IMG/VR virus record: IMGVR_UViG_3300045836_000108
Span: 64,001-102,929 of that record
DNA from: a virus
Taxonomy: Duplodnaviria; Heunggongvirae; Uroviricota; Caudoviricetes
Reading direction: 5' to 3' (one strand)
Length of the DNA stretch: 38,929 nt
The notes beneath the pieces were generated by a model. That model worked only from the letters and a program-made list of their open reading frames with translations. It made no database searches and was not told where the DNA came from. Of this stretch, positions 1,427-12,554 are shown one piece after another. Numbering within the stretch: position 1 is the first letter of the stretch; each line of letters begins with the position of its first letter. Both the position numbers and the translations under genes were made by a program.

Positions 1427-2566
1427 TCACTCGTACTCCGTGCCGCCCTTGCGGGTCAGATAGTCCGGGTTGATGAACTTGGCGATAGCGCGTCCCGCCA
1501 GCGGGTCCGTGCGGTCGTAGTCAGGCCGCACCACCAAGCCCTCCCGGACGTGGAGCTTGTTGCCGGACACCGTCTCCATGCCCTCTGACAGCTCGCACAA
1601 CATGTCGTAGTCGTACCGGCCCCGAAACAACACCGGCACAGTCGGCATGTCCCGCAGCTCCTTGGGGAGCAAGACCAAGGCCATGTCCCACACCTCACCG
1701 TCCAAGAACTTGGTGACGCCGCCGGTCCGGAACGCAATGTCGAACAGCGCAAACCCGAGAGTTTCGTCCACTCCGGCATCGGCGCCATAGTGCAGGTCCT
1801 GGACGCCCTTGCCGTAAACCTCGCCGAAAAGGGCCACGTACTCCTGCTGGTAGCTGTGCGCCAGGTGCTCCGCGACGTCCTTCAGCCGGTACCGGCGCGC
1901 CGCACGCCAGTACAGGTTCTTGTCAGACTCTTTCAGCGCCAGGTTCTTGGCGCCCTGGCCCTTGGACGACACCCACATACGGTCCTCCGCGCGGCTGTAC
2001 GTCAACATGAAGCAGCTGCCGTGGATCTTCTCCGTGGCAACCACCGGCTCGCCCTCTTCGAACATGCCCGGGAACCGTTTGATGTTCTCGACGTCGGGCC
2101 ACGGGATCAGGTCCGGCGCGGACTCCACCTCACCGGCCATCCCCACCGGCACCGGCGGCACCCACTTGGTGATGCCAAGCCTGTCGGCGTAGTCCTTGTT
2201 CAAGCTCGCGTGACCGTCCCACACCTGCTTGCCGCCCAGAAACAGCGGCTGCGTCAGGTCCCAATCCCACGGGACGGCCAAAGCGTAAGGGCGGCACACG
2301 ATGCCCTGGGACAGCTCTCCGCGCAGCCGTACGGCCTTTACGCGGTCTTTCTCCGGCCCGGCCAGCTTCCCCTCAAGCCCCAACTCCTGAAGCAACCTAG
2401 GAGGCAGTACGGCAGCCTCTGGGATGTACAGGGCGTAGTCTCCCGTCTTGAACTGCGCCTTGCGCACGACGGCACGGAAACCGCCAACCTGCGCCAGCTC
2501 CAACGCGTCGGCGTTCGGGTGCTCCAGCACCGTCAGCTGCTCCAGCTTGACCTTGAACTCGCTCAT
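1427..2566 (-). CDS. ATP-dependent RNA ligase, DRB0094/Rnl5-like family (379 aa)
   Basis: N-terminal HPNADALELAQVGG module; nucleotidyltransferase motifs TEKIHG, LFGEVYG, FALFDI, REGLVV, IAKFIN; RBS GAGGAG before ATG 2566. Confidence 0.9.
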   Translation of the reverse strand: MSEFKVKLEQLTVLEHPNADALELAQVGGFRAVVRKAQFKTGDYALYIPEAAVLPPRLLQELGLEGKLAGPEKDRVKAVRLRGELSQGIVCRPYALAVPWDWDLTQPLFLGGKQVWDGHASLNKDYADRLGITKWVPPVPVGMAGEVESAPDLIPWPDVENIKRFPGMFEEGEPVVATEKIHGSCFMLTYSRAEDRMWVSSKGQGAKNLALKESDKNLYWRAARRYRLKDVAEHLAHSYQQEYVALFGEVYGKGVQDLHYGADAGVDETLGFALFDIAFRTGGVTKFLDGEVWDMALVLLPKELRDMPTVPVLFRGRYDYDMLCELSEGMETVSGNKLHVREGLVVRPDYDRTDPLAGRAIAKFINPDYLTRKGGTEYE

Positions 2567-2745
2567 TCCCGTTTCTCCTCCGGTTTGTCCCTGCCGGGGA
2601 TCCCGCCAGGGTTCTTCTCCATCCACTGCCAGTTGTCGTACGTTCCGCCGACGCCGCATCTGAAGCACCAGTACAGGCGTTTCTCGTCGTTCTCGTAGTA
2701 GGCGTCAGATCCGCACCAGTGACAGATCCTGCGTACAGCCGTCAA
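2563..2745 (-). CDS. small zinc-ribbon protein (60 aa)
   Basis: CHWC...CFRC; GGAGGG RBS before TTG 2745; its stop overlaps the ligase start (ATGA). Confidence 0.65.
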   Translation of the reverse strand: MTAVRRICHWCGSDAYYENDEKRLYWCFRCGVGGTYDNWQWMEKNPGGIPGRDKPEEKRE

Positions 2746-2760
2746 CAGCCCTCCAACGAC

Positions 2761-2794
2761 AAAAGGGGGTGCCCCAGGCCACAGAGGCACCCCC
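2761..2794 (-). terminator. intrinsic terminator after the Ro60 gene
   Basis: ggggtgcc/ggcacccc stem followed by UUUU on the minus strand. Confidence 0.7.
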
Positions 2795-2801
2795 TAGCTT
2801 G

Positions 2802-4433
2802 CTACAGCTCCCACGGCCAACCGGCGTCGTGGCCCCGCGACAGCAAGTCCATCATCTTGAACATGGCGTCGCTGAACCCGCCGATCTCGTACCGGTTCGG
2901 AGCCGACGTGTTGATGGTTGCCTTCTCGTAGCCGTTGGTGTTGATGCCGAACATCGGTACGTCCGGCGGCAGCGTCTCCGACACAGACTGCCTGCCGTAG
3001 GACCACGCCTGCATGTCGGAGACGATGATCACGCGCTTGTGGATCGTTTCCCGGTACGTGGCCCTCAGAGCCTCTACGGTGCGGGTGCCGTGGCCAACGG
3101 AGCCGTTCTTGGCCTTGAACGCTTCGATCTGACGCAGCGCGCTGCCAGCCTTGTTAATGTTGTGCGGGAACTGGCCGTCGGCGAACCCGATCAGGTCCAC
3201 CTCGTTACCGCGCATCGCCAACGCCACGCCGATCAGAGCGCCCACGTCCTCGTGCGTCACCTGCGACTTGGAGGAAACCCGACCCTGCATGGAACCAGAG
3301 GTGTCCACCAACACCAGGCTGCGCCCGTCCAGCTTAGGAAGCGCGGAACACGCAGCATCCAAGCCCTTGTCCAGGGCGTGGCCCCAACGCAGCGACGGCG
3401 CTGCCCGGTACGCCGACAGCAGCCGGTACGGAAACACCCGTGCCTTGCGGATGTCCTCCGGGTCGGAAAGCCGCTCGCACACCGCCTTGGCGACGTCGTC
3501 GGACACCCCGGCCACGTCGAAGTTCCGCAGGTTCCGCATCAAGGCAAACGCCCCCATGGCCGGGATGATCGCTTCCCAAGCGGCCTTGTCCATCGGCCCC
3601 TGGAGCCAACCGGCCAGAGCCTCCCACGTCATGCCAGCCTCGATCAGACGCTGCGACGCGTCCTTGGAGCGGACCAGCTTGCGGCGCTCCGGAACCGGCA
3701 TAGCCATCAGGGCCTGCCGCGCCATCAGGGTCTTGTTGCCCTCCGGCAGCCGGGCGTCCGGACGGTTGTGACGCTTGTCGATGATGTACCGGAACAGTTC
3801 GCCCTGGTAGGACTTGTCCCTGGCCGGGGACGGGTGGGTCAGCTCCAGAACGTCAGCGAACCGGTAGCCGCTGTCCGAGTCCCACTTCAGGAAGTTCTTG
3901 CCGGTGTACAGCTCCTGAACAGCGTCGGCCACACCGCGCTTCACCGGCTTGGGGATGCGGCGGCCGAAGCGGGAAGTCCAGTACGCCAGCAGCTCACCCT
4001 GTTCGTCGGCGCGGACGCAGGCGGCCTTGATGATCCGCCGGTTGAGTCCGTCATTTTCCTGCGGCACGCCCGGCAGAGGCTCCTCGTACAGGGCCAGACG
4101 GGCGTGCACGGCCTCACACGCCGCGACGATGGATGCGGACCGCATGTTGGCCTTGTCGCGGAGCCACGTCACGAAATCCAGCGTCCAGCTGCCGTCCGCG
4201 ACGGCGACCTTGCGGACCAGTTCCCGGTACCGCTGATCACGGGTGTTGGCGTCCTCATAGAACGTGGCCTCGCCCACCATGTTGGTGACGGCCAACAGAA
4301 CCAGAGCCGACTTGTCGTCGTGGACCCACGCCTTGCCGCCTTCGTGGCTGACGGTCTGGACGCCGGTGTTCCCCATGGGCGACTTGGCCGGGTGGACGTA
4401 CGGCTTGGCTTCATTGGTGTTGAACTTGGCCAT
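2802..4433 (-). CDS. rsr: Ro60/Rsr orthologue (TROVE domain plus C-terminal vWA, 543 aa)
   Basis: TROVE hallmarks EATFYE, WLRDKANMRS, RRIPKPVKRGVADA, MTWEAL, MGAFALMRNLRNF, FPYRLLSAY; vWA MIDAS LVDTSGSM, GHGT, IIVSDMQ; RBS AAGGAGG. Confidence 0.95.
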   Translation of the reverse strand: MAKFNTNEAKPYVHPAKSPMGNTGVQTVSHEGGKAWVHDDKSALVLLAVTNMVGEATFYEDANTRDQRYRELVRKVAVADGSWTLDFVTWLRDKANMRSASIVAACEAVHARLALYEEPLPGVPQENDGLNRRIIKAACVRADEQGELLAYWTSRFGRRIPKPVKRGVADAVQELYTGKNFLKWDSDSGYRFADVLELTHPSPARDKSYQGELFRYIIDKRHNRPDARLPEGNKTLMARQALMAMPVPERRKLVRSKDASQRLIEAGMTWEALAGWLQGPMDKAAWEAIIPAMGAFALMRNLRNFDVAGVSDDVAKAVCERLSDPEDIRKARVFPYRLLSAYRAAPSLRWGHALDKGLDAACSALPKLDGRSLVLVDTSGSMQGRVSSKSQVTHEDVGALIGVALAMRGNEVDLIGFADGQFPHNINKAGSALRQIEAFKAKNGSVGHGTRTVEALRATYRETIHKRVIIVSDMQAWSYGRQSVSETLPPDVPMFGINTNGYEKATINTSAPNRYEIGGFSDAMFKMMDLLSRGHDAGWPWEL

Positions 4434-4464: not shown

Positions 4465-4597
4465 ACGCGGAGGCGTCCGAGATCCAGGCGGCGATGGTTT
4501 CACCGCCCCTTGCGGGGGCGGGTTCAGGGATTGAACCTGTTCCTTGTAAAGGAGTTACCGAAGTAACCATCACCTGCGCACCGGACGCGTTACGCGT
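4465..4597 (-). ncRNA. Y-RNA-like element Y1 (T arm, loop-closed acceptor, no D arm, UAC loop)
   Basis: Ends pair (GCGUCCG/CGGACGC); shared motifs GGUGCGCAGG..ACUUC and GGAUCUC; T arm CAGG-UUCAAUC-CCUG; acceptor hairpin CCGCCCC/GGGGCGG; immediately upstream of Ro60. Confidence 0.75.
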
Positions 4598-4599
4598 CT

Positions 4600-4738
4600 C
4601 CTCCCGAGATCCAATCGGCTGCGGTCAGCAGGGCCGGAGTCGAACCGGCGACCTCCGCCTTACCTTGGCGGTGCTCTACCACCTGAGCTACCCGGATGAA
4701 GTGGTATCCGAAGTAACCGCTGCCTGCGCACCGGGAGG
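4600..4738 (-). ncRNA. Y-RNA-like element Y2 enclosing a normal-order tRNA-Thr(GGU)-like body
   Basis: Terminal stem CCUCCCG/CGGGAGG with Y motifs; interior D arm GCUC/GAGC, anticodon arm CCGCC-AAGGUAA-GGCGG, T arm GCCGG-UUCGACU-CCGGC, only 4-bp acceptor. Confidence 0.75.
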
Positions 4739-4751
4739 TGCACTTGTTCAG

Positions 4752-4905
4752 TTGTGTAGTCCTGAGATCCAAGACGGCGGAGGCTTCCGTGGAGGCCGCT
4801 GTCTTAGGCCGCTAGACGACCGCCCCGTACGGCGCGGACAGGATTCGAACCTGCGATAGGCGGCTTAGGTAAGAAGTATCCCCAACCTACGCACCAGGAC
4901 CACAA
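4752..4905 (-). ncRNA. yrlA: Y-RNA-like element Y3, YrlA-type (tRNA module opened at the anticodon loop)
   Basis: Order: Y 5' strand, GCCGC, T arm GCAGG-UUCGAAU-CCUGU, acceptor hairpin CCGCGCC/GGGGCGG, Glu-like D arm GUCU-AGCGGCCUA-AGAC, GCGGC, Y 3' strand GGAUCUC. Confidence 0.75.
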
Positions 4906-4909
4906 TGTT

Positions 4910-5056
4910 TTGACCTGCCCGAGTTCCAAGCGACTTGGGCAACGTTACATGTTGCCAGTTACACCACGGCCCCGAGGATGGAGCCGACGGGACTCGAACC
5001 CGCATCTTCAAATTTCCAGTTCGAAGTAGCCCAGGTCTTCGCACCGGGCAGGTCAA
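4910..5056 (-). ncRNA. Y-RNA-like element Y4, circularly permuted tRNA module with intact GGA anticodon arm and G3.U70 acceptor
   Basis: 12-bp terminal stem UUGACCUGCCCG/CGGGCAGGUCAA; GGUGCGAAG motif; CUUCGAA-CUGGAAA-UUUGAAG, then T arm, then CGGCUCC-A-UCCUC-GGGGCCG, then D arm GUGU/ACAU. Confidence 0.78.
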
Positions 5057-5104
5057 GCTTGAGCGCCGTCCCCCGGCCGGGGGGGTCGCGGGGGGACGGC
5101 GCAG

Positions 5105-9781: not shown

Positions 9782-9856
9782 GAGACCGCCAGAGATCCGG
9801 ACGGCTGCGGCCTGTTCCCAACGAAGTATCCGCTGCCTGCGCACCTGGCGGTGCTC
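9782..9856 (-). ncRNA. Y-RNA-like element Y5, minimal (75 nt, no tRNA module)
   Basis: CCGCCAG/CUGGCGG terminal stem, GGUGCGCAGGCAGCGGAUACUUC, short interior, CCGUCCGGAUCUC. Confidence 0.72.
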
Positions 9857-9871
9857 TGAAGTTTTAGTTGT

Positions 9872-10017
9872 TGTACCCCACCAGAGGTCTAGTCGGCCAG
9901 GCAGATCGTAGGTGCTCTGCCGCTGAGCTACGGTCCCGGGGGACCGGCAGGATTCGAACCTGCGACAACCCGCTTAGAAGGCGAAGAACTCCTGGCCTGC
10001 GCACCTGGTGGGGTGCA
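9872..10017 (-). ncRNA. Y-RNA-like element Y6, circularly permuted tRNA-Arg(UCU)-like module
   Basis: UGCACCCCACCAG/CUGGUGGGGUACA terminal stem; GGUGCGCAGG..UCUUC; UUCGC-CUUCUAA-GCGGG, T arm GCAGG-UUCGAAU-CCUGC, CGGUCCC-CC-GGGACCG, D arm GCUC-AGCGGCA-GAGC. Confidence 0.78.
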
Positions 10018-11454: not shown

Positions 11455-12102
11455 TCAGAACGCACCTGGAGCCACCTGCCACGTTGTCAGGCCCAGCTTC
11501 CGCCAGAGGTACACGCATCGGTCCCTGTCGTCCAGCACCAGGATCGGGTGGGTGATGCCGCGCACGTACTGGTCAAACAGGTCAAGCTTGACGATGTCGT
11601 CGCTGCGGCGGTCACCCTCCGGCCGCATCAGCAGCATGTCGTACTTGACGGCGTACTTGGCGAGCCAGCGTTCGGTGTGGGGCCGGTACTCGGACTGGCG
11701 GCCGGACAGCAGGATGATGGTTTTGCCCGCGTCCCGCCACATGGCCAGGTTGGTGGACACGACGGCGTTGAGGTAGTCGGTTTCGACCCTGTCGAAGTCG
11801 TACGGTCCCCGGTGGAAGCGTTCGGCCAGGGTGCCGTCGATGTCGCAGAGGACGCTCTGCGGCACGTCCTCGTCGTCCTGGACGGGCCTGGCCATCTGCA
11901 CGTCCACGCCGAACGGCTGAACCGACGCGCCGGTGGCCTGCTGAAGGTGCCACCAGATCTTGTCGCTGGCGTCCTGCTCGATGTCGGTAATGCGACGTGA
12001 GACGCCAGACAGGCCAGTGGTGCCGGGCCCGTCGTGGACGTACCACGCCCAGTCGGAGCCGTTGGAGTCGGCCAGGACAGTGTGTATAGGGTTGGCGCTC
12101 AC
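11455..12102 (-). CDS. HAD-family polynucleotide 3'-phosphatase (T4 Pnkp C-terminal type) without a kinase domain (215 aa)
   Basis: CDIDGTLA, SGR, TERWL, LLMRPEGDRRSDDIVKLDL, LDDR, LWRKLGLTTWQV; GTG 12102 overlaps the upstream stop; no P-loop in the N-terminal ~80 aa. Confidence 0.85.
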   Translation of the reverse strand: MSANPIHTVLADSNGSDWAWYVHDGPGTTGLSGVSRRITDIEQDASDKIWWHLQQATGASVQPFGVDVQMARPVQDDEDVPQSVLCDIDGTLAERFHRGPYDFDRVETDYLNAVVSTNLAMWRDAGKTIILLSGRQSEYRPHTERWLAKYAVKYDMLLMRPEGDRRSDDIVKLDLFDQYVRGITHPILVLDDRDRCVYLWRKLGLTTWQVAPGAF

Positions 12103-12554
12103 GCTGCCACCGGCTGGACCAAGGTCAGGGTGGGGGTAGCCGGGTGGGTGTTGACGTATTCCCACAGTCCGGCCAGGGCGGTGCGCCAGTTGCCGTCGAG
12201 CATGGCCTTGGTGGCGAGGTTGGTGGCGTGGCGTTCGTTGGTGGCGTTGCCGATCTTGTGGACGGCCAGGCCTCCGACGGCGACCCGCAGGGACGGGGCC
12301 GGGGGCTCGTCGGTGATCTTGGGGAGGATGCGGGTGGCGGTCTGGTCGGCGTAGACGGAGGGCGGCACGGTGCGGTATCCGATGTGGGCGCCCTTTTCGA
12401 CGCCGACGGCGTTGTAGAGGGGCCGCTGCGGCGCGGTGATGCCGTTGGCGGGCTCCTTGATGTCCAGCTTCAGGTCCAGGTTGCCGTCGCTGCGGTGCCA
12501 GGCCTTGGCGGTGCCGGTGAAGCGGCGGGTGAGCTTGTCCTTCAGGTTCCACAT
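12099..12554 (-). CDS. hypothetical protein (151 aa)
   Basis: ORF track; GGAGGAGAACACC RBS. Confidence 0.8.
   Translation of the reverse strand: MWNLKDKLTRRFTGTAKAWHRSDGNLDLKLDIKEPANGITAPQRPLYNAVGVEKGAHIGYRTVPPSVYADQTATRILPKITDEPPAPSLRVAVGGLAVHKIGNATNERHATNLATKAMLDGNWRTALAGLWEYVNTHPATPTLTLVQPVAA

What the first reader, a model, noticed from the sequence alone, without database searches (positions are those of the whole stretch)
4910..5056. Y4: circularly permuted tRNA with an alanine-type acceptor (G3.U70, A73) but a GGA anticodon
Seen: the acceptor strands GGGGCCG / CGGCUCC-A are joined by a UCCUC linker and contain G3.U70; the anticodon loop is CU-GGA-AA with no long variable arm. No conventional Ala or Ser tRNA was found in this window. 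Established: G3.U70 is the AlaRS identity element shared by tRNA-Ala and tmRNA, and circularly permuted tRNA genes that mature through a ligated circular intermediate are known from some algae and archaea. Inference: excising the Y stem, ligating D arm to anticodon arm and opening the linker would give an Ala-chargeable RNA reading UCC/UCU; alternatively it is an AlaRS/EF-Tu-type decoy.
Basis: partly seen in the sequence, partly recalled or inferred. Interest (0 to 1): 0.75.

Follow-up and report, generated by a model that had tools for sequence, protein, structure and literature searches.

The report
Phage Y RNA with alanine-tRNA-like acceptor
This is one of six small Y RNAs that a soil phage encodes next to its Ro60 RNA-binding protein; like known bacterial YrlA RNAs it contains a rearranged tRNA look-alike, and its unusual point is a stem that copies the alanine-tRNA recognition mark, which a small group of related phages also keep.

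Summary
Y4 is not a free-standing permuted tRNA gene. It is a YrlA-class Y RNA, one of six in a tRNA/Y RNA/Ro60/RNA-repair island. A model built from 54 other Ro60-adjacent RNAs scores it at 92 bits (E about 1e-19), and all helices of the family covary. YrlA RNAs are already published as circularly permuted tRNA mimics, also in phages.

Two parts of the reading hold up. G1-C72, G2-C71, G3.U70 and A73 are invariant in the closest relatives while pairs 4-7 covary. The hairpin before the T arm has anticodon-arm size and loop signature across the family.

Excision of the Y stem and religation into a decoding tRNA is not supported. The Y stem is the most conserved part, the GGA triplet recurs in only two relatives, and the phage has an ordinary tRNA-Ala elsewhere.

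Most likely Y4 works as a Ro60 partner. Its acceptor may be opened by RNase P and given CCA, as shown for Mycobacterium smegmatis YrlA. Alanine charging is possible but untested.

In passing: other phage Y RNAs encode N73-CCA inside the acceptor loop, with a discriminator that matches the anticodon-like triplet.

The parts
4910..5056 (-). Y4, a complete Y RNA (147 nt) of the YrlA class
   Evidence: Bespoke model R1 hits 4913-5053(-) at 92.2 bits, E 1e-19, model positions 1-142 of 142. Rfam YrlA RF02553 covers 4924-5045(-) full length but scores only 25.3 bits against a gathering score of 69.
5045..5056 (-). 5' strand of the terminal Y stem (UUGACCUGCCCG)
   Evidence: Pairs with 4910-4921. Base-pair probability is about 1.0. 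The homologous helix covaries in 127 family members (helix 1).
4910..4921 (-). 3' strand of the terminal Y stem (CGGGCAGGUCAA)
5037..5045 (-). GGUGCGAAG, the family-wide motif corresponding to the presumed Ro60-binding GNCGAAN0-1G element
   Evidence: [quoted passage not shown] The motif is described in PMC4201824.
5006..5026 (-). Anticodon-arm-like hairpin, the 'V' stem-loop of the published YrlA model. Loop CUGGAAA is at 5013-5019 and GGA at 5015-5017.
   Evidence: Read directly from the sequence. The family helix covaries (helix 5). The loop signature Y32 U33 NNN R37 A38 holds in 64 perfect hairpins.
4987..5003 (-). T arm GCGGG-UUCGAGU-CCCGU
   Evidence: The helix covaries (helix 6).
4967..4986 (-). 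Acceptor-like stem closed by a 6-nt loop: CGGCUCC (4980-4986), A73 (4979), UCCUC (4974-4978), GGGGCCG (4967-4973). G3.U70 lies at 4971/4982.
   Evidence: The top three pairs and A73 are invariant in the subfamily.
4949..4964 (-). D arm GUGU-AACUGGCA-ACAU, containing G18 G19
   Evidence: The helix covaries (helix 8).
2802..4433 (-). Ro60 (TROVE + vWA) gene, the presumed protein partner
   Evidence: Pfam TROVE 50.6 bits. PDB matches to phage phiLo Ro60 9l5y/9kop, Xenopus Ro60 1yvp and D. radiodurans Rsr 2nvo.
4471..4903 (-). Three further Y RNAs between Y4 and the Ro60 gene: 4756-4903, 4598-4740, 4471-4590
   Evidence: R1 hits of 75.1, 55.8 and 49.7 bits.
9784..10013 (-). Two more Y RNAs at the far end of the tRNA array: 9876-10013, 9784-9853
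   Evidence: R1 hits of 109.9 and 43.2 bits.
2764..2795 (-). Terminator-like hairpin just after the Ro60 stop codon. It implies one tRNA/Y RNA/Ro60 transcript.
1427..2668 (-). RNA ligase gene in the same island
   Evidence: Pfam RNA_ligase PF09414, 81.8 bits.

Best explanation
Y4 is a YrlA-class Y RNA. It is probably cut out of the tRNA/Y RNA/Ro60 transcript on the minus strand. Its two ends pair into a long bulged stem that carries the family's Ro60-binding motif, and the phage's own Ro60 protein is expected to bind there. The middle folds as a complete, circularly permuted tRNA look-alike: an anticodon-arm-like hairpin, T arm, acceptor stem closed by a short loop, and D arm. This part is expected to recruit tRNA-recognising factors, as proposed for YrlA RNAs.

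Y4 differs from most relatives, which cap this stem with tight tetraloops. It has a 7-bp acceptor with a loose 6-nt loop and the tRNA-Ala/tmRNA top (G1-C72, G2-C71, G3.U70, A73). I infer that tRNA end-processing enzymes recognise this end: RNase P before G1, then trimming and CCA addition after A73. That would give a two-piece, Ro60-bound RNA like processed M. smegmatis YrlA.

Shown here: family membership, the fold (by covariation), linkage to Ro60, and conservation of the Ala-type top in the subfamily. Inferred: Ro60 binding (about 0.85), cleavage and CCA addition (about 0.4), alanylation (about 0.15). It does not act as a decoding tRNA.
For: Family membership. R1 was built from 54 Ro60-adjacent RNAs and contains no member of the Y4 subfamily. 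It scores Y4 at 92.2 bits, E 1e-19, full length.

Fold. On 127 distinct viral family members, 94.1% of cells are paired. The covariation score is 0.603, against 0.167 for shuffles and at most 0.11 for slid controls. All 8 helices covary.

Context. The Ro60 gene lies about 480 nt downstream on the same strand with a terminator after it. The same Y RNA-then-Ro60 arrangement is seen in 25 plus 80 viral loci and 80 actinomycete loci.

Ala-type acceptor top. It is invariant in Y4, L010/L364, L365, L053/L398, L012/L371, L433 and Streptomyces phage GiJojo, while pairs 4:69 to 7:66 and the T stem change with compensation. In a sample selected without reference to the acceptor sequence, 9 of 56 closed acceptors have this top. 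At least 15 full-length phage Y RNAs carry GGGGC/GCUCC-A, and four of them encode A73-CCA.

Precedent. M. smegmatis YrlA is about 147 nt with a 7-bp acceptor, is cut by RNase P in vitro, and is found in vivo as two Rsr-bound halves with CCA added (PMC4201824). Phage phiLo Ro60 binds phage Y RNA-like RNAs and host PNPase (PMC12135203).
Against: The Rfam YrlA score is below the curated cut-off (25.3 against 69). The whole actinomycete branch also scores only 40-50 bits.

In 6 of the 7 closest relatives, A73 can pair with U-1. That gives an ordinary 8-bp stem with a 4-nt loop, in which G.U is just a wobble.

Y4 has U74, whereas 22 of the 24 real tRNA genes of this phage and 6 of 7 subfamily members have C74.

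The nearest-neighbour MFE does not recover the T and D arms: the cloverleaf-like fold scores -59.4 against an MFE of -67.5 kcal/mol. This is common for tRNAs.

There is no expression, processing or binding data for this phage.
Confidence: 0.8

Rival explanations
1. First reader's main model. Y4 is a permuted tRNA gene: the Y stem is excised, the D arm is ligated to the anticodon arm by the phage ligase, and the linker is opened. The product is an alanine-charged tRNA that reads UCC/UCU.
For: All cloverleaf parts are present, and the re-joined sequence is called as a tRNA. RNA ligase and PNKP-type phosphatase genes flank the island. ARAGORN finds no conventional tRNA-Ser in the genome. GGA loops co-occur with the same acceptor in L040 and L059 although the hairpin stems have fully covaried. 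In other phages, CCA-encoding Y RNA modules have a discriminator that fits their triplet.
Against: The Y stem is the best-conserved part of the family and also frames modules without any tRNA part. It is linked to Ro60, and YrlA RNAs are known to be stable Ro-bound RNAs (PMC4201824). There is no bulge-helix-bulge motif at the junction: 3 nt face 8 nt. No phage or bacterial enzyme is known to make such a double cut. The triplet varies within the subfamily: UUG, AGG, UCU, GCU, AUG, GUU. Ala at Ser codons would be proteome-wide mistranslation. The phage already has a normal tRNA-Ala.
Confidence: 0.04
2. Two-piece alanyl-Y RNA or decoy. [quoted passage not shown] The charged end then protects the RNA, or it titrates AlaRS or EF-Tu, or it brings Ro60/PNPase to the translation machinery.
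For: AlaRS needs only the acceptor helix with G3.U70 (PMC8583063, PMC6055181; abstracts). G1-C72, G2-C71, G3.U70 and A73 are invariant in the subfamily while pairs 4-7 covary. Four Ala-type phage Y RNAs encode A73-CCA. The tmRNA_permuted model aligns the T arm and acceptor at 24.5 bits. Chen et al. raised aminoacylation of cleaved M. smegmatis YrlA as a possibility.
Against: The alternative of 8 bp plus a tetraloop applies to most members. G3-C70 versions of the same design exist: L321, L318, L359. Y4 itself has U74. There is no biochemical evidence.
Confidence: 0.15
3. The alanine-like top is a relic with no role of its own. The tRNA-like module descends from, or recombined with, a tRNA-Ala-type gene pair, and G.U is tolerated in a closed stem.
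For: Across the wider family the acceptor is highly variable and mostly tetraloop-capped. The Ala-type top is rare: about 5-7 of 120 viral and 1 of 130 chromosomal elements. G.U wobbles occur at other stem positions too. The order anticodon arm-T arm-acceptor 3' strand-spacer-acceptor 5' strand-D arm is what a tandem tRNA duplication would give (inference).
Against: A single U70-to-C transition would strengthen the helix. Yet U70 is kept in lineages whose Ro60 proteins are only 36-59% identical and whose neighbouring pairs have changed on both sides. Y4 is not a recent copy of the phage's own tRNA-Ala, because the D arm and lower acceptor differ.
Confidence: 0.3
4. Anticodon-nuclease bait. The hairpin presents a serine-type anticodon loop (C U GGA A A) on a tRNA-shaped, Ro60-tethered scaffold. 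It would absorb or report a host tRNA-cleaving defence, in an island that also carries spare tRNAs and RNA-repair enzymes.
For: The anticodon-loop signature is kept family-wide with many different triplets. The island combines 19 tRNA calls, six Y RNAs, Ro60, an RNA ligase and a PNKP-type phosphatase.
Against: This is purely contextual. Chromosomal actinomycete YrlAs have the same hairpin, so it is not phage-specific. No nuclease has been identified.
Confidence: 0.1
5. A permuted (two-piece) tmRNA gene.
For: The Rfam tmRNA_permuted model matches 4967-5003 at 24.5 bits (E 0.003), and the top is GGGG.../...CUCC-A.
Against: Only 58 of 213 model positions align and the score is below the cut-off of 47. 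ARAGORN finds no tmRNA. There is no tag reading frame and there are no pseudoknots. A D arm and a Y stem are present instead.
Confidence: 0.01

Closest known systems
YrlA RNAs (Rfam RF02553; Salmonella Typhimurium and Mycobacterium smegmatis; Chen et al. 2014, PMC4201824; structure in bioRxiv 10.1101/312249)
   Same: Encoded next to a Ro60/Rsr gene. The 5' and 3' ends form the Ro-binding stem. The middle is a tRNA mimic with T arm, closed acceptor-like stem, D arm and a 'V' stem-loop before the T arm. It is described in print as a circularly permuted tRNA. M. smegmatis YrlA has the same length (about 147 nt) and a 7-bp acceptor, and is opened by RNase P with CCA added.
   Different: Y4 scores below the Rfam cut-off, as does the whole actinomycete/actinophage branch. 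The 'V' hairpin has full anticodon-arm size and loop signature. Seven to eight nucleotides, instead of one, separate the D arm from the next helix. The acceptor top copies the AlaRS identity set. Whether M. smegmatis YrlA shares that could not be checked here.
Thermus phage phiLo Ro60 with Yrl1/Yrl2 (PMC12135203)
   Same: A phage-encoded Ro60 with Y RNA-like genes just upstream. Binding to Ro60 and assembly with host PNPase were shown experimentally. It is the best PDB match for this window's Ro60.
   Different: The text read here mentions no tRNA-like module for Yrl1/Yrl2. The host lineage is different.
Two-piece (circularly permuted) tmRNA genes
   Same: The gene order is T arm, acceptor 3' strand ending ...CUCC-A, a short spacer, then a GGGG... 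5' strand. G3.U70 is present. The spacer is removed to give a two-piece RNA charged with alanine.
   Different: Y4 has no tag reading frame or pseudoknots and no encoded CCA. It has a D arm, an anticodon-like hairpin and a Ro-binding stem.
Circularly permuted tRNA genes of Cyanidioschyzon merolae and split tRNAs of Nanoarchaeum (from established knowledge)
   Same: The 3' half of the tRNA lies upstream of the 5' half. Complementary flanks hold the ends together.
   Different: Those use a bulge-helix-bulge motif, the archaeal/eukaryal splicing endonuclease and ligation to give a normal tRNA. Y4 has no such motif, and its flanks are a conserved protein-binding stem.

Membership tests
YrlA-class Y RNA | Encoded beside a Ro60/Rsr (TROVE) gene | tested here: met
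   The Ro60 ORF at 2802-4433(-) starts 477 nt downstream of the Y4 3' end on the same strand.
YrlA-class Y RNA | 5' and 3' ends pair into a stem carrying the GNCGAAN0-1G-type motif | tested here: met
   There is a 12-bp terminal stem plus GGUGCGAAG. The first G of the published motif is U here, as in the whole actinomycete branch.
YrlA-class Y RNA | T arm, closed acceptor-like stem-loop and D arm in that order, with tRNA-conserved nucleotides | tested here: met
   Covariation of each helix is shown.
YrlA-class Y RNA | Reaches the Rfam RF02553 gathering score (69 bits) | tested here: not met
   The score is 25.3 bits, E 0.0024, over the full model length. Chromosomal Streptomyces-type YrlAs reach only 40-50 bits. 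The bespoke family model gives 92.2 bits.
YrlA-class Y RNA | Bound by Ro60 in vivo | not testable with these tools
   This needs Ro60 immunoprecipitation.
Functional tRNA-Ala | G3.U70 with A73, G1-C72 and G2-C71 | tested here: met
   Read directly from the sequence.
Functional tRNA-Ala | Free 5' end at G1 and 3' end N73-CCA (or the local N73-C74 gene convention) | tested here: not met
   The ends are joined by UCCUC. Position 74 is U, whereas 22 of 24 tRNA genes of this phage have C74.
Functional tRNA-Ala | Contiguous cloverleaf order and an alanine anticodon | tested here: not met
   The order is permuted and the triplet is GGA. ARAGORN and the Rfam tRNA model do not call it in place.
Permuted tRNA gene (C. 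merolae type) | 3' half upstream of the 5' half | tested here: met
Permuted tRNA gene (C. merolae type) | Bulge-helix-bulge motif at the junction of the flanks | tested here: not met
   At the junction, UAC faces GUAACGUU, and there is no 4-bp helix flanked by two 3-nt bulges.
Permuted tRNA gene (C. merolae type) | Circular intermediate and re-joined mature tRNA | not testable with these tools
   No RNA data are held.
Two-piece tmRNA | Tag reading frame, pseudoknots, and the Rfam or ARAGORN call | tested here: not met
   The tmRNA_permuted model gives 24.5 bits against a cut-off of 47, over 58 of 213 positions. ARAGORN finds no tmRNA.

The most novel reading that the evidence does not exclude
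A lineage of phage Y RNAs, Y4 among them, are Ro60-bound 'split tRNAs'. RNase P and the CCA enzyme open the acceptor loop, and the exposed end is charged by a synthetase; for Y4, AlaRS would charge it through G3.U70. This would link the Ro60/PNPase RNA-surveillance machine to aminoacylation or translation factors during infection. The wider version also remains open: phage Y RNAs that encode N73-CCA and have a discriminator coherent with their anticodon-like triplet may be real synthetase substrates.
Probability: 0.15. Interest if true: 0.85.

Novelty: new variant of a known kind. Interest (0 to 1): 0.58.

Why it matters
Y RNAs that mimic tRNA have been known since 2014, but what the tRNA part is for remains open. 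Whether any Y RNA is ever aminoacylated was raised only as a possibility for M. smegmatis.

This phage and its relatives supply a concrete test case. The Y RNA subfamily has an acceptor top that is exactly the alanine identity set, conserved while the rest of the stem drifts. Sister Y RNAs in other phages even encode CCA. A cultured relative, Streptomyces phage GiJojo, carries the same element, so the question can be answered at the bench.

There is also a practical side. These elements are being annotated as ordinary tRNA genes in phage genomes, which inflates tRNA counts and hides Y RNAs.

Tried and rejected
Sequence searches against cultured phages. Megablast of the region against 50,697 phage records found nothing. 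Sensitive blastn found only T-arm-sized matches.

Expression. No RNA holder is listed among the public runs; the 11 holders are soil or rhizosphere DNA contigs.

M. smegmatis YrlA sequence. This was wanted to see whether the experimentally cleaved RNA has G3.U70. An exact primer-derived pattern found nothing in genome contigs. A 2-mismatch scan of 401 genomes gave only noise. No claim in this report rests on the unpublished genomes flagged in that call. The paper's supplements and two reviews are not held.

Pattern scans. It was replaced by the UACUUC + T loop + D arm pattern.

Folding. Single-sequence MFE folding does not show the T and D arms, so the structure rests on covariation instead.

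Rejected readings. tmRNA and a conventional tRNA with an insert (Rfam tRNA, 21.8 bits, joining Y4 to the next Y RNA) were considered and rejected.

Full report
**What is there**

The window is the right end of a 102.9-kb soil phage genome with terminal repeats. On the minus strand a 19-gene tRNA array runs from 9776 down to 4623. It is followed by a 543-aa Ro60 gene at 4433-2802 and a terminator-like hairpin at 2795-2764. The Ro60 protein gives Pfam TROVE at 50.6 bits and matches phage phiLo Ro60, Xenopus Ro60 and D. radiodurans Rsr structures. An RNA ligase gene (1427-2668) and a PNKP-type phosphatase gene (11455-12552) flank the block.

These are a terminal 12-bp stem, a hairpin with loop CUGGAAA, a T arm, CGGCUCC-A-UCCUC-GGGGCCG with G3.U70, and a D arm with GG. 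When the two halves are joined in silico in tRNA order, ARAGORN calls a canonical cloverleaf.

One addition: the phage has a conventional tRNA-Ala(UGC) outside the window, at contig position 44626-44698.

**What it is**

Rfam's YrlA model (Y RNA-like) aligns to 4924-5045 over its full length, but at 25.3 bits against a cut-off of 69. Two other sub-threshold YrlA hits lie in the same island.

I fetched Ro60 loci from three searches: 25 and then 80 viral contigs, and 80 actinomycete chromosomes, the closest being Streptomyces and relatives at 56-59% identity. Almost all carry one to several RNAs just upstream of Ro60. These share the 5' motif CCCGGUGCG(A/C/U)AGG...GGNUACUUC and the 3' motif CCGAC..GAUCUCGGG.

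A covariance model (R1) was built from 54 of them, with none from Y4's own subgroup. It scores Y4 at 92.2 bits, E 1e-19, end to end, and finds six such RNAs in the window. On 127 distinct viral members, 94.1% of cells pair. The covariation score is 0.603 against 0.167 for shuffles and at most 0.11 for slid controls. Each of the eight helices shows compensatory changes.

Chromosomal members of this branch reach only 40-50 bits on the Rfam model. The low Rfam score is therefore a property of the branch, not of Y4.

Y4 is a YrlA-class Y RNA. The literature already describes YrlA as a Ro60 partner whose effector domain is a tRNA mimic. [quoted passage not shown] A phage Ro60 has been shown to bind phage Y RNA-like RNAs and host PNPase (PMC12135203).

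**The 'anticodon arm'**

Chen et al. call the stem-loop before the T arm 'V' and equate it with the variable arm. In this branch it looks like an anticodon arm. Of 122 distinct viral members, 64 have a perfect 5-bp stem and 7-nt loop placed 4-5 nt before the T stem. Loop position 32 is a pyrimidine in 91%, position 33 is U in 91%, position 37 is a purine in 95%, and position 38 is A in 91%. The middle triplet takes 24 different values. Chromosomal members show the same pattern.

In that viral Ro60-based sample GGA occurs only in Y4. Two distant Ala-type relatives from the pattern scan, L040 and L059, have CUGGAAA and CUGGAUA on fully covaried stems. The rest of the subfamily has UUG, AGG, UCU, GCU, AUG or GUU.

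The shape is therefore under selection, but a particular codon reading is not.

**The alanine-type acceptor**

Across the family the acceptor-like stem is variable. It is mostly 6-8 bp and capped by 3-4-nt loops such as UUCG, GAAA and GCAA. The combination G1-C72, G2-C71, G3.U70 is rare. It occurs in about 5-7 of 120 viral elements and 1 of 130 chromosomal elements.

It does define a coherent subgroup: Y4, L010/L364, L365, L053/L398, L012/L371, L433 and cultured Streptomyces phage GiJojo. All of these also have A73 and a 5-nt spacer. Most share a GUGYAAY-type D arm; L012/L371 has no recognisable D arm in my parse. Their Ro60 proteins are 41-59% identical to this window's Ro60. Within the subgroup, pairs 4:69, 5:68, 6:67, 7:66 and the T stem change on both sides, whereas the top three pairs and A73 never change.

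I then took a sample chosen without reference to the acceptor, using the pattern UACUUC + T loop + GUGYAAY. In it, 9 of 56 closed acceptors have this top.

A direct pattern scan followed by the model shows at least 15 full-length phage Y RNAs with GGGGC/GCUCC-A. Most of the loci that extend far enough also hold a Ro60 homologue. Four encode A73-CCA: L071, L074, L115 and L116. In acceptor-unbiased Ro60-based samples, encoded N73-CCA is near chance, at 3 of 70 and 2 of 85.

There are three caveats.
- In six of the seven closest relatives, A73 can pair with U-1. That gives an ordinary 8-bp stem with a tetraloop. Y4 itself has A.C at that position.
- G3-C70 versions of the same design exist.
- Y4 has U74, whereas 22 of the phage's 24 tRNA genes and six of seven subgroup members have C74.

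**How it most likely works**

Ro60 binding is inferred from the conserved stem and from linkage to the Ro60 gene.

M. smegmatis YrlA is about 147 nt, the length of Y4, and also has a 7-bp acceptor. It is cut by RNase P in vitro and is found in vivo as two Rsr-bound halves with CCA completed. The most economical reading of Y4's loose, tRNA-Ala-like acceptor is therefore that tRNA end-processing enzymes handle it, giving a two-piece Ro60-bound RNA. I put this at about 0.4.

Charging by AlaRS requires little beyond G3.U70 in an acceptor helix (abstracts). It would then be possible; I put it at about 0.15.

The Y-stem excision and ligation route to a decoding tRNA is unlikely, at about 0.04. The stem is the family's most conserved element and also frames tRNA-less modules. 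There is no bulge-helix-bulge motif. The combination of Ala acceptor and GGA loop recurs in only two relatives.

The tmRNA reading is excluded by the anatomy.

**A wider pattern seen on the way**

In the acceptor-unbiased D-arm sample, 13 of 56 phage Y RNAs encode N73-CCA plus a 1-8-nt spacer inside the acceptor 'loop'. Chance expectation is about 1.6%. Eleven are confirmed as full-length Y RNAs by the model, and ten of the 13 loci contain a Ro60 homologue.

Eight CCA-encoding elements have a clean anticodon-like hairpin: seven from this D-arm scan (one of them a second element in locus L506) plus L115 from the Ala-type scan. In all eight the discriminator fits the amino acid implied by the triplet. 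The cases are UCC with U73 (twice); GUU with G73; ACG, UCG and UCU with A73; GAU with A73; and UGU with A73. Among elements without CCA the match is 8 of 25. By my hand calculation from these counts, the hypergeometric probability is about 0.001.

These modules therefore look like recently captured, or still recognised, tRNAs in permuted form. This deserves its own follow-up.

**Verdict**

Y4 is a real, well-supported phage Y RNA of a known class. Its permuted-tRNA anatomy is known in principle. The alanine identity set, conserved in a phage subgroup, and the anticodon-arm-like hairpin are variations that I did not find described in the papers I could read. The decoding-tRNA mechanism is not supported.

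Noticed in passing
L474:2462-2605(+), L457:9879-10023(-), L473:8995-9139(+), L476:7746-7883(-), L524:822-960(-), L508:3613-3757(-), L497:8459-8602(-), L115:4115-4258(+): These are phage Y RNAs, full length by model R1. Ro60 homologues lie in most of these loci. Their acceptor 'loop' encodes N73-CCA plus a short spacer. In 8 of 8 such elements with a clean anticodon-like hairpin (seven of the loci above plus L506), the discriminator matches the amino acid implied by the triplet: Gly/U73 twice, Asn/G73, Arg/A73 three times, Ile/A73, Thr/A73. Among elements without CCA the match is 8 of 25.
   Followed up: partly
Family-wide: alignments A5 and A6. In the window: 5006-5026(-) and the equivalent hairpins of the other Y RNAs.: The 'V' stem-loop of actinomycete and actinophage YrlA RNAs has anticodon-arm dimensions: 5 bp, a 7-nt loop, and 4-5 nt to the T stem. 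The loop signature is Y32 U33 NNN R37 A38, with 24 different triplets.
   Followed up: partly
L443 (Streptomyces phage GiJojo PP725410, record about 9789-9939). Also Alone3 OR725492 and LuckySocke OR725497, gene 36.: Y RNAs upstream of Ro60 are annotated as ordinary tRNA genes in deposited phage genomes: 'tRNA-Arg(cct)' and 'tRNA-Ser'. ARAGORN likewise calls tRNA-Ser(gct), tRNA-Ile and tRNA-Pro on the 5' halves of Y RNAs in IMG/VR loci.
   Followed up: partly
window 4598-4740(-): The ARAGORN 'tRNA-Thr(ggt)' at 4623-4698 lies inside a Y RNA (R1, 55.8 bits). Its acceptor pairs only 5 of 7, and the Y stem takes the place of the acceptor end. It is probably not a free tRNA.
   Followed up: partly
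whole genome G000: 22 of 24 ARAGORN tRNA calls in this phage have C at position 74, followed by non-CCA sequence. This suggests a local 3'-end maturation convention.
   Followed up: no
L231-L310, L363-L443: The Rfam YrlA model under-detects the actinomycete branch. Ro60-adjacent YrlAs of Streptomyces and relatives score 40-50 bits against a gathering score of 69, though with E values of 1e-5 to 1e-8.
   Followed up: yes
window 5060-5100(-): A GC-rich hairpin (GCCGUCCCCC...GGGGGACGGC) sits between tRNA-Tyr and the 5' end of Y4. It may be a processing or stability element.
   Followed up: no
e.g. L046, L063, L067, L091 and about 20 others: Many IMG/VR phage contigs carry circularly permuted (two-piece) tmRNA genes...GCUCCACCA, a spacer, then GGGGCUGA..GGUUUCGAC.
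   Followed up: no
L235:2101-2220(+) (Streptacidiphilus sp. chromosome): This is the only chromosomal Y RNA in the sample with the Ala-type top (CCGGUCC-A-CCCCU-GGGCCGG). It lacks the hairpin before the T arm.
   Followed up: no
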